A stretch of 64,000 nucleotides of DNA from an uncultured Poribacteria bacterium. Lineage in GTDB: Bacteria > Poribacteria > WGA-4E > WGA-3G. The stretch is from contig CATQHZ020000001.1 in NCBI GenBank assembly GCA_958296135.2, positions 2,912,001 to 2,976,000 of the forward strand, read 5' to 3'. Positions 13,315 through 17,567 of the stretch are shown here, one piece after another (positions within the stretch are counted from its first letter, which is position 1; every line of letters begins with the position of its first letter). The position numbers were made by a program, and so were the translations under genes. A model generated the notes under the pieces. That model saw nothing but the letters and a program-made list of their open reading frames with translations, was not told where the DNA came from and did no database searches.

Positions 13315-13520
13315 TGCATGGCGATGGCCAGGTCCTCGCGCGACGGTGCTCAGCGCGCTCGGTGCATGGCGAGGCACAGGACCTCGCCCTACGGTGAGTG
13401 TGGAGTGCCTCGCGTCCGTAGCGCGGGGGCCTGTCCCCCGCGCTCGGTGCATGGCGAGGCACAGGACCGCGCCCTACGGTATGGGGCGGCCGGCCTGGTG
13501 CTCGCCGGGCCCGCGCCCTA
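13315..13520. repeat. REP cluster, family A, both orientations
   Basis: Includes CCGTAGCGCGGGGGCCTGTCCCCCGCG at 13416-13442. Confidence 0.85.
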
Positions 13521-14828
13521 GGGTGACAAGGCCGGTTTTGCTTTTAAACCGATGCCGGTCAGAATGGATACCGTCGTTTCGCCTTCGTTGATGATGCCAG
13601 CCTCGCGAAAATGCTCGTATCCTTTGACAACCACGGCAGAGGTTGGTTCAACATAAATACCACGTGTTGCTAGGGTTTCTATGCCGGCTTTGATTTCAGC
13701 GTCGTCAACGGTGGTGAATGCGCCGTTCGTATGACGCATTGCGTCTAAAATCATCTCGCCGCGGATAGGCAGTTCAGCAGTAATTCCTTCGGCAAGCGTC
13801 GGGCTGGTTTGCGTCATTCTTGAGACAGTTATTCTATTTCGTGGGGCGGCTGCTTGCTTGTGTTTATCGCTGTGCCGCCCTTCCCGATACGCGTTGTAAA
13901 TCGGACAGCAGACCGTGGGTTGAACGCCCAACAACCGCGGCATGTGCGCAATAACGCCAGCCGCGTGCAATTCGCGAAAACCGATGAACAACCCCAAATA
14001 GATGCTCCCGAAACCGACAGGACAGATAACGTGCGCGGGGACATCTCCGCCCAACTGTTCAACGATTTCAAACGCCACTGTTTTTGTGCCTTCCAAAAAG
14101 AAAGGGTGCCAGTTGTGAGAGGCGTAGCAGGTGTTTTTCGCTGCGTCTTTCACCGCCTCGGTTGTCGCCATGCGGTTGCCTTCAACGAGTTTCAATCCTG
14201 CGCCGTAGGCGGCAATCTGTGCTAATTTCCCTTTTGATGTCGATGCTGGGCAGTAAATAGTGCATCGGATGCCGGCTCGCGCGCTATAAGCCGCTATTGC
14301 CGCGCCTGCATTTCCAGACGAATCCTCAACGATTTCTTCAACGCCGAGTGCCTTGAGATGCGTGAGCAACACTGAAGCACCCCGGTCTTTGTAAGAACCG
14401 GTTGGGCAGAGGTAGTCTAGTTTGACATAGTGCCCTGAATCTTCCGCGGTATCAAGCGGTATCAGCGGTGTTATTCCTTCGCCGAGGGTGACGGTGTCTG
14501 CATCGTCAGGTATCGGGAGTGCGGCGCGATACCGCCATAGGGAGATGTCCTCTGCTGTGCGGGCTCCCGTAGGGCGAGGGCCTGTGGCTTGCGATGCGTC
14601 TGCTGCGTGTTCTACCGTAGGGCGAGGGCCTGTCCCTCGCCATGTCTCTGCTGTGCGGGCTCCCGTAGGGCGAGGGCCCGGCGATCGCGAATCGCCGAGG
14701 GTTCCCCCTCGCCATGCCTCTGGGCCCCAAAAACCGTCCCTTAGCCATAACGGTGAACCGCAGTCGCATTGGTAGCGCAGCGGTGATATGGGGTATGTTG
14801 CATTGCAGTGGCTGCAGGTGTATTGCAA
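13518..14828 (-). CDS. thrC: Threonine synthase-like PLP enzyme with an in-frame REP-derived insert
   Basis: CxxC..CxC N-terminus, LWRYR, TLGEGITPL, PTGSYKDRG (PLP lysine), DSSGNAG, YVEPTSA, LTGIGLK. Confidence 0.85.
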   Translation of the reverse strand: MQYTCSHCNATYPISPLRYQCDCGSPLWLRDGFWGPEAWRGGTLGDSRSPGPRPTGARTAETWRGTGPRPTVEHAADASQATGPRPTGARTAEDISLWRYRAALPIPDDADTVTLGEGITPLIPLDTAEDSGHYVKLDYLCPTGSYKDRGASVLLTHLKALGVEEIVEDSSGNAGAAIAAYSARAGIRCTIYCPASTSKGKLAQIAAYGAGLKLVEGNRMATTEAVKDAAKNTCYASHNWHPFFLEGTKTVAFEIVEQLGGDVPAHVICPVGFGSIYLGLFIGFRELHAAGVIAHMPRLLGVQPTVCCPIYNAYREGRHSDKHKQAAAPRNRITVSRMTQTSPTLAEGITAELPIRGEMILDAMRHTNGAFTTVDDAEIKAGIETLATRGIYVEPTSAVVVKGYEHFREAGIINEGETTVSILTGIGLKAKPALSP

Positions 14829-14847
14829 GTCTTTCTCCTAGTGGACA

Positions 14848-15323
14848 GCATGGCGCGGCACAGGACCGCGCCCTACGGTGCTGGAGAGTTTCTCGTGCCC
14901 GTAGCGCGGGGGCCTGTCCCCCGCGATCGCTGCATGGCGAGGGACAGGCCCTCGCCCTACGGTGGTGCGGCGCGATCGGTGCATGGCGAGGCACAGGACC
15001 GCGCCCTACGGTGGTTCGGTATGCTCGGTGCATGGCGAGGCACAGGACCTCGCCCTACGGTGAGGGTGGAGTGGCTCGCGTCCGTAGCGCGGGGGCCTGT
15101 CCCCCGCGATCGCTGCCTGGCGCGTGACAGGCTCTCGCGCTGCGGTGGTTCGGTACGATCGGTGCATGGCGAGGGACAGGCCCTCGCCCTACGGTGAGGG
15201 TGGAGTGGCTCGCGTCCGTAGCGCGGGGGCTTGTCCGCCGCGCTCGGTGCATGGCGAGGCACAGGACCTCGCCCTACGGTATGGAGCGGCCGGCCTGGCG
15301 CGGGACAAGCCCTCACCCTACGG
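14848..15323. repeat. REP/BIME-like array, family A
   Basis: About ten hairpin copies in both orientations with repeated linkers (e.g. GGTGAGGGTGGAGTGGCTCGCGT twice). Confidence 0.9.
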
Positions 15324-15327
15324 ATGT

Positions 15328-16335
15328 TTATTCCTCATCCCAGGGCAGTGGGATACCGAGTCTCTCACTTGCTGCGCGCGCCGATGCTTGTTCCATTTCG
15401 CCGTATCGGATGCCTTTGCGGCGATGTCTTTCTGTGCGTTCTGCCTCAATCGCGCCGGGGAGTAGTGCTTCGTCGGTGCCGGGCATGGGTTCGTAGGTTT
15501 CGCGGATGTCGCGCACCATCCGGTCGACTTCAGCGTGGAATACCGCGGCGGGGACGACGGAGCCAATATCTATTGCTAGCACCATGCCGCCCATGCGGCC
15601 GCCGCTCCACTTCGCCGTGTCTTCGGGTGGCGGTTCGGTGAAGCCGGTCAGTGCGCCGCCGAGCAGACTCGCGATGGCGGTATAGCCGATGCTCTTAAAG
15701 AATGCCGCGGGAATAACAGAAAGCAATGCGTCAAAATCGGGGCCGCGCTGGTAATCCGCCATGATGCAGGTTGCCGCGTCCAACACGACAGGCGGCTCCT
15801 CTCCAGATGGAATGGCAAAACAGATTGGCGGGTTGCCGTAGTATCCGAGTTGCGGTTTTGATTCTTGGTGCCCCGCGTTGCCTTGCCCCCGAGACCCTTG
15901 TACCGAGAAGCCGATGCATCCGGATTCGTTGCAGAGGCGCGCGTAATGTCCGGCGGAGCCGTAGTGCCCGATATAGCGGACGAGTCCCATTCCGATGCCG
16001 ACTTCCTTCGCTTTAGCGATGGCGTATTCGGTGGCGCGCACCATCGGGAGGTATCCGAGGGTGCCGTTGCCATCAAGCACCACCGCGGTCTGCGTTTCAT
16101 GGAGGATGCGGAGTTTGGGACGCGGGTTGTGGCTGCCGTTTTCAAATCCGCCGCAGTAGCCGTTTACTGTCCGAGTGCCGTGGCTGCGAACACCGCGCAG
16201 ATCGGCGTTCACCAACAACCGGCTGATGAGGGCAGCGTGTTCATGTGTCAGGCCCGCTTTTTCAAAGCAGGCTGTTGAGAAATGGAGCAGTCGTTCTTCT
16301 TCGACAAGAACGAAAGTTTCCGGGGGTCTGTTCAT
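15328..16335 (-). CDS. Ldh_2-family oxidoreductase (type 2 malate/L-lactate dehydrogenase family)
   Basis: ADLRGVRSHG, LDGNGTLG, HYGSAGHYA, GNPPICFAIP and LLPGAIE motifs. Confidence 0.88.
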   Translation of the reverse strand: MNRPPETFVLVEEERLLHFSTACFEKAGLTHEHAALISRLLVNADLRGVRSHGTRTVNGYCGGFENGSHNPRPKLRILHETQTAVVLDGNGTLGYLPMVRATEYAIAKAKEVGIGMGLVRYIGHYGSAGHYARLCNESGCIGFSVQGSRGQGNAGHQESKPQLGYYGNPPICFAIPSGEEPPVVLDAATCIMADYQRGPDFDALLSVIPAAFFKSIGYTAIASLLGGALTGFTEPPPEDTAKWSGGRMGGMVLAIDIGSVVPAAVFHAEVDRMVRDIRETYEPMPGTDEALLPGAIEAERTERHRRKGIRYGEMEQASARAASERLGIPLPWDEE

Positions 16336-16409: not shown

Positions 16410-17567
16410 TTACGGGTCCAACTGTTTATAGAATACCTTCGTCCCGTCCTTGACAGTCATAATAACGACACTCTTGGTAGGATGGCGGTTTGCATTGTAG
16501 CCCGCGATGGTAGTGACACCGACGTAGTTCTTCGTCGCGGCGATTTCATTTCGGATGGCGGTGGCATCGAAACTGCCGGCGCGTTCTACGGCTGCGGCGA
16601 GCAATTTGACGCAGTCGTAGCTGACAGCGATGCCGCCGACCGGGGTGATTCCGTGCAGTGTTTCGTATTTCTTAACAAACGTCTGTATTGTCGGCTGCTC
16701 GGCGTTCGGTGAGAAGTGCGTGCTGAAGAAACTCCCTTCGATTTGCGCTTCTTCACTTTCTAGCAAGGTTGCGCTGTCCCATGCATCTGCGCCGAGGAAG
16801 ATGGTGGGTTTCCCGGCGGCGTTTTGCAGTGCCATAGCGCGCGCCTGCTTCGTGATGTGCACGACACCTTCTGCAAAGCTGGCGATGAAAAGCGCGTCGG
16901 GGGCGGCAGCGGCTACCCGGGTCAGCTGTTCGGTGAAGTCGGTTGCGCCGGCTTCATAAAATTCCTTTGCCACGATTTCGCCGCCCGCTTTGGCGACATT
17001 AGCCGTGAAGATTTCGGTGATGCCTTCGGAATAGACATCTCCCTGTTGCGCTATCACTGCCGCCTTGGTGCCCCCAAGTTCTTTTATGGCGAATTGCGCC
17101 ATCACTTCACCTTGGAACAGATCTGTCGCCGATGCCATAAAGACAAAATCGCCCGCGTTTGTGACGCTCGGGTTCGTCGCTGTCGTCGTAATCATCGGGA
17201 TACCATACTTTTGTGCCACGGGGCCGACTTCAACGGCGTGCGTGGACCGGTTTGGCCCCAGGATAGCGATGACTCCCTCGTCGCGAATCATTCGTTCGGC
17301 AGCCGCGGCAGCAACCGCCGCGTCTTCTATCCCCACTTGGATAACCAATTCGATGGGCATGCCGAGGAGGCCACCCATCTCATTAATCTCGGCGACAGCT
17401 ATCGCTGCACCGTTGGGGAACGTTACGCGGCTCCCTGAGCCGAGGAACCCAATTTTAACGGACTGCGTTTGCTCCGGGGCGATTACCTCTTGGGCTCTGT
17501 TGCATCCAAGGAGCGTCAGCGCGAATGTAAGTAAAGCGAACGTTGCGATACATTTCGTTTTTGTCAT
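16410..17567 (-). CDS. Branched-chain amino-acid type ABC substrate-binding lipoprotein
   Basis: Lipobox LLGC; EINEMGGLLG, TATNPSVT, GATDFTEQL motifs; no cognate permease nearby. Confidence 0.88.
   Translation of the reverse strand: MTKTKCIATFALLTFALTLLGCNRAQEVIAPEQTQSVKIGFLGSGSRVTFPNGAAIAVAEINEMGGLLGMPIELVIQVGIEDAAVAAAAAERMIRDEGVIAILGPNRSTHAVEVGPVAQKYGIPMITTTATNPSVTNAGDFVFMASATDLFQGEVMAQFAIKELGGTKAAVIAQQGDVYSEGITEIFTANVAKAGGEIVAKEFYEAGATDFTEQLTRVAAAAPDALFIASFAEGVVHITKQARAMALQNAAGKPTIFLGADAWDSATLLESEEAQIEGSFFSTHFSPNAEQPTIQTFVKKYETLHGITPVGGIAVSYDCVKLLAAAVERAGSFDATAIRNEIAATKNYVGVTTIAGYNANRHPTKSVVIMTVKDGTKVFYKQLDP

What the first reader, a model, noticed from the sequence alone, without database searches (positions are those of the whole stretch)
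14550..14720. REP array translated in-frame inside a threonine synthase-like gene (~55-aa palindrome-derived insert)
Seen: between the N-terminal CxC and LWRYR the protein reads WRGGTLGDSRSPGPRPTGARTAETWRGTGPRPTVEHAADASQATGPRPTGARTAE. This is the translation of three family A REP copies (e.g. CCGTAGGGCGAGGGCCTGTCCCTCGCC at 14615-14641), with a 33-bp internal duplication (14550-14582 and 14646-14678) offset by 96 bp, so the frame is kept. All catalytic motifs downstream are intact. Known: this parallels Rickettsia palindromic elements, which add peptide segments to proteins. Inference: the intergenic repeats here expand inside an enzyme and are filtered for frame, so they act as a source of new protein sequence.
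Basis: partly seen in the sequence, partly recalled or inferred. Interest (0 to 1): 0.85.

Follow-up and report, generated by a model that had tools for sequence, protein, structure and literature searches.

The report
REP hairpin repeats translated inside enzyme
Three and a half copies of a small mobile DNA hairpin (a GTAG-type REP) sit in frame in the floppy linker of a threonine-synthase-like gene of a Poribacteria genome; the case is real and part of a genome-wide habit, but this kind of insertion is already described in other bacteria.

Summary
The gene at window 13518-14828 (-) encodes 436 aa: an N-terminal zinc ribbon, about 50 extra residues, then a complete PALP (ThrC-like) domain. 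The extra residues are the translation of three GTAG-tagged REP units of 48 nt (14550-14693) and a partial fourth (14694-14722). These belong to a family with 1201 copies in this genome.

Orthologues in other genera lack the insert. The two congeners carry it at the same point with other copy numbers, and they carry a second REP site in an internal loop that survives here only as a decayed remnant.

No in-frame start codon lies between codon 1 and codon 153, which is past the PLP lysine. The catalytic domain shows dN/dS of 0.11-0.16. An active enzyme must therefore be translated through the REPs. AlphaFold2 predicts both REP sites as disordered.

Genome-wide, 45 of 73 tested long ORFs carry REP segments flanked on both sides by Pfam-matched sequence. 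REP spacings inside ORFs are enriched for multiples of three.

In-frame intragenic GTAG REPs were described by Di Nocera et al. 2013 at similar density, and this scan has already noted them in other Poribacteria genomes. Verdict: a real, ordinary-to-moderately interesting new member of a known kind. Translation and any function of the insert remain untested.

The parts
13518..14828 (-). ThrC-like PLP enzyme gene, 436 aa, TTG start
   Evidence: ORF. PALP PF00291 covers aa 113-425, E 8.4e-72. Best NCBIfam hits are threonine synthase models, all below their cut-offs. An orthologue is present in 41 of 41 related genomes.
14835..14838 (-). GGAG Shine-Dalgarno-like motif, 6 nt upstream of the TTG start (14826-14828)
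   Evidence: Read directly from the sequence. The same taGGAGaaa-TTG arrangement occurs in congener G002.
14733..14828 (-). N-terminal zinc ribbon (CxxC...CxC, aa 1-32)
   Evidence: AF2 pLDDT is about 86-88 over residues 1-30. The four Cys are conserved in G000, G001, G002 and G004. The ribbon is also present in insert-free homologues.
14550..14597 (+). REP unit U1 (48 nt). The core is at 14567-14593, with 4 substitutions and the right stem arm lost. It encodes ASQATGPRPTGARTAE on the - strand.
14598..14645 (+). REP unit U2 (48 nt). The core at 14615-14641 matches the consensus perfectly: a GTAG head, an 8-bp stem and a 5-nt loop. It encodes TWRGTGPRPTVEHAAD.
14646..14693 (+). REP unit U3 (48 nt). 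The head and left arm are at 14663-14678. It is a long-loop variant with a nested GGCGAT/ATCGCC hairpin, the same variant that flanks the RAYT gene. It encodes DSRSPGPRPTGARTAE.
14694..14722 (+). Distal REP right arm (CCCTCGCCATGCCTCTG), which closes U3's long loop. It encodes PEAWRGGTLG.
   Evidence: D7 (14634-14650 against 14706-14722, 94%)
13836..13874 (-). Second insertion site (aa about 319-331, ...HSDKHKQAAAPRN...). This is a probable decayed REP remnant, with 32 aa here against 18 aa in other genera.
   Evidence: Lengths are. Congeners have clear REPs at this site, with 1-4 substitutions. pLDDT is below 50 over 319-331. The site falls in a gap against Mtb ThrC 2d1f. The remnant status in this genome is an inference, because no match at up to 8 substitutions was found.
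13493..13525 (+). REP-like copy whose head (CTAG variant) supplies the gene's TAG stop codon at 13518-13520
   Evidence: D2 copy. The - strand reads TCA CCC TAG GGCGCGGGCC.
14848..15325 (.). Intergenic REP array directly upstream of the gene, holding 8 of the 12 D2 copies plus opposite-strand copies
13316..13525 (.). Intergenic REP array directly downstream of the gene (4 D2 copies)

Best explanation
A GTAG-tagged REP element landed in the DNA that codes the flexible linker between the zinc ribbon and the catalytic domain of a ThrC-like enzyme. This happened in the ancestor of this Poribacteria genus. The REP is a 27-nt hairpin with its flanks, and belongs to a genus-specific family that is presumably mobilised by a REP-associated tyrosine transposase (RAYT). 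The copy lay in one of the five stop-free reading frames of the element and in a disordered surface segment, so the enzyme survived. The REP and its 21-nt spacer (48 nt, or 16 codons) were then duplicated in tandem on the spot. This gave 3.5 copies here and other numbers in relatives. A second REP site in an internal loop expanded in relatives and decayed here. The insert is read through by the ribosome as a Pro/Gly/Arg/Thr-rich disordered stretch of about 50 aa. It is most likely a tolerated passenger with no role of its own. The REP identity, the orthologous empty sites, the copy-number variation, the local duplication and the purifying selection on the host gene are shown. Mobilisation by the RAYT, the order of events, translation and neutrality are inferred.
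For: REP identity:
- There is a 31-nt perfect match to intergenic copies.
- The family has 1201 copies in this genome, against 0 in shuffled sequence.
- The GTAG head is intact in 850 of 923 clearly intergenic copies.
- A 181-aa HUH/Y1 transposase gene scores 30.2 bits against PF01797 (cut-off 23) and 57 bits against NF047646. It is flanked by these REPs in inverted orientation.

Genus specificity:
- At up to 3 mismatches the family has 605, 745 and 2485 copies in the three genus-g1 genomes.
- It has 3 copies in G004 and 0 in the other 37 relatives. The reversed control gave 0.

Empty sites in other genera and occupied, variable sites in congeners:
- G000 has three REPs at 5, 0 and 4 substitutions.
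- G002 has two, at 1 and 0 substitutions.
- G001 has one decayed copy.
- All are at the same point, in the same orientation and in the same frame.

Other support:
- The spacers are unique to the locus, which points to local tandem duplication.
- The insert must be translated for an active enzyme. The only in-frame ATG/GTG/TTG before codon 153 is codon 1, and the invariant Lys147 lies upstream of 153.
- The catalytic domain has dN/dS of 0.11-0.16 among the three REP-bearing genomes, at dS of 0.37-0.65.
- The zinc-ribbon Cys residues are conserved.
- Residues 33-96 and 319-331 have pLDDT below 50, while the ribbon and the core are confident.
- Unitigs at single-copy depth with 0 mismatches tile 14100-14867.

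Genome-wide habit:
- 63 of 73 long ORFs have Pfam hits.
- 45 of 73 have a REP flanked on both sides by Pfam-matched sequence. Examples are RecG, LigA, class I tRNA synthetase, 6PGD, CoaBC, NadE and a histidine kinase.
- Spacings are multiples of three in 35 of 48 pairs against 202 of 552, Fisher p 1.7e-6.
Against: - No RNA or protein evidence exists, so translation is inferred only.
- In one of four runs of one sample (X2), the only unitig over 14553-14639 carries a TT insertion after 14609. That insertion would end the frame 45 codons later. A broken allele may therefore circulate, or the unitig is in error.
- Gene callers on close relatives start the protein at an internal Met after the ribbon (MLDTW...). 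G000 and G002 use TTG, not ATG, at codon 1.
- In-gene copies are no more decayed than intergenic ones. Perfect stems occur in 25 of 63 against 351 of 923. Age and neutrality therefore cannot be read from decay.
- The pairs in the spacing test are not independent, because they come from tandem arrays.
- The RAYT next to these REPs scores below NCBIfam's cut-off (57 against 80 bits), and its activity is untested.
- The whole insert region as RNA folds no better than shuffles (z -0.16).
Confidence: 0.8

Rival explanations
1. The REP array is not translated. The zinc ribbon is a relic, translation starts downstream, and the REPs lie in the 5' leader, where they act, if at all, as RNA elements.
For: - Di Nocera et al. 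2013 warn that many N-terminal 'intragenic' REPs are really extragenic (passages read).
- Database proteins of close relatives are called from an internal Met, and some homologues lack the ribbon (P0043, P0062, P0107).
- The start codon here is TTG.
- A TT frameshift variant appears in one run.
Against: - No in-frame ATG, GTG or TTG lies between codon 1 and codon 153, which is beyond the invariant Lys147.
- A GGAG motif lies 6 nt before the TTG.
- The ribbon's four Cys and 23-24 of its 27 residues are conserved among congeners at dS of about 0.4-0.65.
- The frame stays open across arrays of different length in all three congeners and in the metagenomic relatives.
- The second REP site lies in the middle of the catalytic domain in relatives, where it must be translated.
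Confidence: 0.07
2. The insert has been co-opted. The REP-coded Pro/Gly/Arg-rich segment serves as a length-tunable linker or a shared short motif, and selection maintains it.
For: - The site has stayed occupied across three species at dS up to 0.65, with the frame always kept.
- Frame use among in-gene arrays is uneven even among stop-free frames: VGRGPVPR 23, RGTGPRPT 11, ARDRPSPY 8, GEGQALALR 7, RRARACPS 1, chi-square p 2.6e-5.
- The LigA loop REP is shared by the genus and is still a perfect consensus here.
Against: - Copy number and sequence vary freely among relatives, and one congener has only a decayed copy.
- Site 2 has decayed here.
- Both sites are predicted disordered.
- Other genera do without the insert.
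- The frame bias is equally explained by selection against Cys-rich or very basic peptides.
Confidence: 0.08
3. The gene is decaying, or the array is an assembly artefact of a repeat-rich region.
For: - Short-read contigs break at every REP, and none spans the whole array.
- A TT indel variant appears in run X2.
- The genome holds three better-scoring thrC paralogues, so loss might be tolerated.
Against: - dN/dS is 0.11-0.16.
- The full-length PALP match has its invariant residues kept.
- Overlapping unitigs at single-copy depth reproduce the assembled sequence without mismatch.
- Independent genomes and metagenomic proteins show the same architecture.
Confidence: 0.05

Closest known systems
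Intragenic GTAG-/CGTC-tagged REPs (Di Nocera, De Gregorio and Rocco 2013, BMC Genomics 14:522, PMC3733652; passages and part 1 of Additional file 3 read)
   Same: The elements are short GTAG-headed hairpins that are mostly intergenic, with a RAYT gene flanked by them. Some copies are single, some paired and some clustered. They lie in frame inside genes for known proteins, including DNA ligase, helicases, tRNA synthetases and ASPIC/UnbV proteins. The paper describes clusters that encode 43-82 aa, REP heads that supply TAG stop codons, and the authors' view that inserts sit in linkers or loops. The density is comparable: I counted 70 Opitutus terrae rows in Additional file 3, against 45 Pfam-validated ORFs here (104 candidates).
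   Different: The phylum (Poribacteria) and the REP sequence family differ. The host gene is a ThrC-like enzyme with two REP sites. The copy-number variation among congeners, the local 48-nt tandem duplication and the uneven use of stop-free frames are documented here. I did not see them in the passages I read.
Rickettsia palindromic elements (RPE; Ogata et al. 2000, recalled; cited in PMC3733652 and PMC3184786, passages read)
   Same: These are palindromic repeats inserted in frame into functional genes. They add peptide segments that are tolerated.
   Different: RPEs are about 105-146 bp (table in PMC3184786) and belong to Rickettsia. They have no GTAG-REP architecture apart from the short RPE-4 and RPE-6 forms. 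No tandem 48-nt arrays are described for them. The element here is not a member of that family.
REPIN/RAYT systems of Pseudomonas and E. coli (Bertels and Rainey 2011, PMC3116915; search listing only)
   Same: Both have REP singlets and inverted doublets with one cognate, vertically inherited RAYT gene flanked by REPs.
   Different: Those populations are described as extragenic. Here 5-14% of copies lie in long ORFs (63 to 166 of 1201).
Coding-region minisatellites (in-frame VNTRs) of bacterial surface proteins (general knowledge, recalled)
   Same: The unit length is a multiple of three, and copy number varies between strains through slippage or recombination.
   Different: Here the unit is seeded by a mobile hairpin element and sits in cytoplasmic housekeeping enzymes.

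Membership tests
GTAG-tagged REP / REP-RAYT system | Short unit (20-40 nt) able to form a G+C-rich stem-loop | tested here: met
   GGCGAGGG-CCTGT-CCCTCGCC gives an 8-bp stem and a 5-nt loop. The hairpin is predicted in the RNA fold. Perfect stems occur in 351 of 923 intergenic copies.
GTAG-tagged REP / REP-RAYT system | GTAG tetranucleotide at one end | tested here: met
   GTAG is intact in 850 of 923 intergenic and 51 of 63 in-gene copies.
GTAG-tagged REP / REP-RAYT system | High copy number, dispersed, mostly intergenic, as singlets, dimers and clusters | tested here: met
   There are 1201 copies in 601 arrays of 1-17 copies. 923 copies lie in no frame that is open 50 codons on both sides.
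GTAG-tagged REP / REP-RAYT system | Cognate RAYT (Y1 HUH transposase) gene flanked by the REPs in inverted orientation | tested here: met
   L002 1411-1956 (-) scores 30.2 bits against PF01797 (cut-off 23). REPs lie at both ends in opposite orientation. The NCBIfam REP_Tyr_transpos score is 57.3 bits, below the cut-off of 80.
GTAG-tagged REP / REP-RAYT system | Mobilisation of the REPs by the RAYT | not testable with these tools
   Only presence/absence differences between species are seen. An example is the 6-copy array in the histidine kinase of G000, which is absent in G001 and G002.
Intragenic (in-frame) REP insertion in a functional gene | REP sequence wholly inside an ORF, in frame, without stops | tested here: met
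Intragenic (in-frame) REP insertion in a functional gene | Orthologues without the insert at the same point | tested here: met
   22 of 27 loci of other genera have 22-24 aa at site 1, 3 have 29-35 aa, and my pattern failed in 2. There is no REP similarity in the G004 outgroup.
Intragenic (in-frame) REP insertion in a functional gene | Host gene still under purifying selection | tested here: met
   dN/dS is 0.11-0.16 over 325 ungapped codons.
Intragenic (in-frame) REP insertion in a functional gene | Insert is translated | not testable with these tools
   No RNA run was listed. Translation is inferred from the lack of any alternative in-frame start before codon 153.
Rickettsia palindromic elements (RPE) | Element of about 105-146 bp belonging to the Rickettsia RPE families | tested here: not met
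   The unit is a 27-nt core in a 48-nt repeat, and the family is confined to one Poribacteria genus among the 41 genomes searched.
Threonine synthase (NCBIfam TIGR00260 thrC equivalog) | Score over the curated cut-off (167.1 bits) | tested here: not met
   The protein scores 156.8 bits and the genomic match 154.7 bits. Three other loci of this genome score 272.8, 206.7 and 175.6 bits. The gene is a member of the PALP fold and the ThrC-like family only.

The most novel reading that the evidence does not exclude
In this Poribacteria genus the REP population has become a standing generator of in-frame, length-variable disordered segments in dozens of housekeeping proteins. The element's sequence and the preferred reading frames (VGRGPVPR and RGTGPRPT, almost never RRARACPS) would be shaped by selection so that insertions are benign. 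Some arrays, such as the two-site ThrC-like enzyme or the 6-copy array in a histidine-kinase dimerisation domain, would be kept because they tune linker length. Alternatively, indels in the array would act as on/off contingency switches.
Probability: 0.08. Interest if true: 0.6.

Novelty: new member of a known kind. Interest (0 to 1): 0.32.

Why it matters
This is a clean, well-controlled example of mobile hairpin DNA adding tolerated, disordered peptide to enzymes and then growing by tandem duplication. It has empty, decayed and expanded states in sister genomes. It also has practical value. Gene callers mis-start this gene in relatives. REP-coded peptides inflate spurious similarity hits: 141-889 first-look candidates in congeners against about 10 elsewhere. 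Poribacteria annotations should mask these elements. It does not open a new question, because the phenomenon and its likely neutrality were set out in 2013.

Tried and rejected
- RNA evidence: no RNA holder was listed for the stretch, so expression could not be examined.
- Reads: only Logan contigs of four runs of one sample could be laid, and no single contig spans the array. The sample may be the one the genome was assembled from, so it is not independent support.
- Decay test: I expected in-gene copies to be more degenerate than intergenic ones. They are not. Mean substitutions are 3.29 against 3.22, and perfect stems 25 of 63 against 351 of 923.
- RNA structure: the whole insert as mRNA is no more stable than shuffles (z -0.16). 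Only the local REP hairpins fold.
- Site 2 in this genome: no REP match at up to 8 substitutions. Its remnant status rests on peptide likeness to relatives (QAAAPRN against QALAPRN) and the 14 extra residues.
- Literature on Poribacteria plus 'palindromic': 31 papers, and the 15 listed looked from titles and abstracts to concern CRISPR or unrelated topics. I found no paper on REPs in Poribacteria in that search. No other search for it was made.
- Earlier notes of this scan by place gave nothing for this genome.
- Not used: fold search, complex prediction, the second structure job and the large representative search. The fold and family were already clear.
- Inteins, introns or RNA-level removal: considered and not pursued. 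The segment is plain REP sequence with no such features, and no test was possible without RNA data.

Full report
**1. What is there**

The - strand ORF at 13518..14828 encodes 436 aa from a TTG start. A GGAG motif lies 6 nt upstream of the start.

Residues 1-32 form a CxxC...CxC zinc ribbon. Residues 113-425 match the PALP profile from end to end, E 8.4e-72. The best NCBIfam models are threonine synthases, but every score is under its cut-off. For example, TIGR00260 scores 156.8 bits against a cut-off of 167.1.

The same genome has three loci that pass that cut-off, at 272.8, 206.7 and 175.6 bits. This gene is therefore a conserved ThrC-like paralogue, not the obvious housekeeping thrC. It is present in 41 of 41 related genomes searched. 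The nearest solved structure is M. tuberculosis ThrC 2d1f, E 2.2e-40, and the alignment begins at W98.

**2.

On the + strand, three 45-nt direct copies start at 14550, 14598 and 14646, with spacing 48 and 48. The stretch 14614-14644 is 100% complementary over 31 nt to intergenic repeats at 14933-14963 and 15165-15195. A further arm lies at 14706-14722.

The unit is a GTAG head followed by GGCGAGGG-CCTGT-CCCTCGCC.

- U2 is a perfect consensus.
- U1 has lost its right arm.
- U3 is a long-loop variant with a nested hairpin, the same variant found beside the transposase gene.

The 27-mer with up to 5 substitutions occurs 1201 times, all on the 5.01-Mb contig C1, in 601 arrays of 1-17 copies. It occurs 0 times in a shuffled 1 Mb.

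Dense arrays abut the gene on both sides. A REP-like head even supplies its TAG stop codon.

**3. It is a REP/RAYT system confined to one genus**

Two Y1 transposase loci match PF01797. The 181-aa one carries HUH-like DHFHG and YIENNP motifs; these motif labels are recalled. It has family copies at both ends in inverted orientation. It hits NCBIfam's REP-associated tyrosine transposase model at 57 bits, below the cut-off of 80. The other locus scores 125 bits.

At up to 3 mismatches the family has 605, 745 and 2485 copies in the three genomes of genus g1. It has 3 copies in G004 and none in the other 37 relatives. The reversed-pattern control gave 0.

**4. Comparison with relatives**

I measured the distance from the ribbon's CxC to LWRY in 27 loci of other genera.

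- It is 22-24 aa in 22 loci.
- It is 29-35 aa in 3 loci.
- My pattern failed in 2 loci.

I also measured a second interval, from CCPIY to TLAEG. It is 18 aa in 20 of the 27 loci, and the pattern failed in 7.

In genus g1 the two intervals are as follows.

| Genome | Site 1 (aa) | Site 2 (aa) |
|---|---|---|
| G000 | 73 | 32 |
| G001 | 32 | 46 |
| G002 | 63 | 77 |

At the DNA level, site 1 holds three REPs in G000 (5, 0 and 4 substitutions), two in G002 (1 and 0) and one decayed copy in G001. All are at the same point, in the same orientation and in the same frame.

Site 2 holds clear REPs in G001 and G002, including an opposite-strand copy. In G000 it holds nothing recognisable at up to 8 substitutions.

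Metagenomic proteins at 77-82% identity to the query show one to four AWRGTGPRPT units at site 1. At site 2 they show one to six EGQALALR or VARGPVPRDR units.

The spacers of the G000 array occur nowhere else in the genome, so the array grew by local tandem duplication of 48-nt (16-codon) units.

**5. Is it translated, and is the gene alive?**

No in-frame ATG, GTG or TTG lies between codon 1 and codon 153. Codon 153 is past the invariant Lys147 of the SYKDRG motif. The label 'PLP lysine' is recalled; the invariance is.

The catalytic domain has dN/dS of 0.11-0.16 among the three REP-bearing genomes, at dS of 0.37-0.65. The four ribbon Cys are conserved.

An active enzyme therefore has to be read through the REPs. 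This is an inference, and no RNA run was available.

AlphaFold2 was run on a 45-sequence alignment and gave mean pLDDT 76 and pTM 0.79. It gives the ribbon about 86-88 and most of the core above 80. Residues 33-96 and 319-331, the two REP sites, are below 50.

**6. Assembly check**

Contigs of four runs of one sample were laid. Unitigs at single-copy depth with no mismatch cover 14100-14579, 14553-14630, 14619-14675, 14646-14690 and 14689-14867. None spans the whole array.

In run X2 the only unitig over 14553-14639 carries TT inserted after 14609. Read in that frame the ORF would stop 45 codons later. I report this as an unresolved variant. It could be a broken allele or an error.

**7. It is a genome-wide habit**

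Of the 601 arrays, 201 lie in a frame open for at least 50 codons on both sides. Of these, 118 lie in 104 stop-to-stop ORFs of at least 300 aa.

I fetched the 73 distinct ORFs with at least 100 open codons on each side, dropping one duplicate frame of the same region.

- 63 of 73 have a Pfam hit at E of 1e-5 or better.
- In 45 of 73, a REP segment has Pfam-matched sequence on both sides in the same frame. This covers 49 of 87 arrays and 63 copies.
- The Pfam spans were typed by hand from the best-stretch columns.

Hosts include an aminotransferase, RecG, NAD-dependent DNA ligase, a class I tRNA synthetase, 6-phosphogluconate dehydrogenase, CoaBC, NAD synthase, a MurD-like ligase, malate synthase, an M17 peptidase and a histidine kinase with six copies inside HisKA.

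Adjacent REP spacings are multiples of three in 35 of 48 pairs inside long ORFs, against 202 of 552 elsewhere (Fisher p 1.7e-6). Pairs within an array are not independent.

Five of the six frames of the core are stop-free. Their use by the 49 validated arrays (50 array-frame combinations) is uneven: VGRGPVPR 23, RGTGPRPT 11, ARDRPSPY 8, GEGQALALR 7 and RRARACPS 1, p 2.6e-5.

In-gene copies are not more decayed than intergenic ones.

Two spot checks against congeners gave different histories. The LigA loop REP is shared by the genus. The six-copy histidine-kinase array is absent from G001 and G002.

**8. What is known**

Di Nocera, De Gregorio and Rocco (2013, PMC3733652) describe GTAG and CGTC REPs inside genes of several species. 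I read passages and part 1 of Additional file 3. They report the following.

- Dimers and clusters that encode 20-30 aa and up to 43-82 aa.
- REP heads that supply TAG stops.
- Targets such as ligase, helicases and tRNA synthetases.
- A caution about N-terminal cases.

I counted 70 Opitutus terrae rows in that file. Delihas 2011 (PMC3184786, passages read) reviews repeat ORFs fused to genes, and lists RPE at about 105-146 bp.

Earlier notes of this scan report the same kind of thing in other Poribacteria genomes.

The case is therefore a new member of a known kind. Its added detail is the two-site, copy-number-variable architecture and the frame statistics.

**9. Verdict**

The best explanation is a tolerated, translated REP insertion that expanded locally (confidence 0.8). 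Novelty is low to moderate, and interest is 0.32.

Noticed in passing
L002 1990-2400 (G000:C1 about 4791640-4792050), also window 14663-14713: Some REP copies have large insertions in their loop that are themselves hairpins. One is CGGCGATCGCGAATCGCCG, which contains GCGATCGC. Another is a roughly 50-nt insert with CTCTGCAG...CTGCAGAG. These are REPs nested in REP loops, in tandem next to the RAYT gene.
   Followed up: partly
L001 1420-2217 (-) (G000:C1 about 3734400-3735200): The second, better-scoring RAYT gene (125 bits, NF047646) has an N-terminal extension of about 110 aa with tandem HRDRDVPPTVG and HRDAGGLS repeats. This looks like another repeat family read in frame inside the transposase ORF, if the upstream ATG is used.
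   Followed up: no
G000:C1:2904839-2906797 (L080), about 5 kb before the window: A histidine kinase carries six tandem REP units (SVARGPVPRDAAAAPG x6, about 90 aa) inside its HisKA domain. The congeners G001 and G002 have only about 8 aa there, so this is a species-specific expansion.
   Followed up: yes
G000:C1:3113188-3113214 (L085 aa 169-178): NAD-dependent DNA ligase has a perfect-consensus REP (GEGQALALR) in a loop of its adenylation domain. The REP is shared, in mutated or partly deleted form, by G002 and G001. G004 has an unrelated loop of similar length.
   Followed up: yes
window 14609/14610, run X2: The only unitig of run X2 over 14553-14639 has TT inserted in a TT run, which would frameshift the gene. 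Run X3 of the same sample shows the reference form.
   Followed up: partly
G000 contigs C2-C4: Contig C2 (143,886 bp) has 36.8% G+C against 54.4% for C1, and C3 and C4 have 67% and 60%. None of the three holds a single REP copy, so they may not belong to this organism.
   Followed up: no
column of first-look candidates: The REP-coded peptides make the query hit 141-889 places in congeners against about 10 in other genera. This is a practical source of spurious similarity in searches with proteins of this genus.
   Followed up: no
window 15328-16335 (-) and 16410-17567 (-): The genes upstream on the same strand are an Ldh_2 family dehydrogenase and a periplasmic substrate-binding protein-like ORF. 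This hints that the ThrC-like enzyme may belong to an amino-acid-related catabolic or salvage cluster and not to threonine biosynthesis.
   Followed up: no
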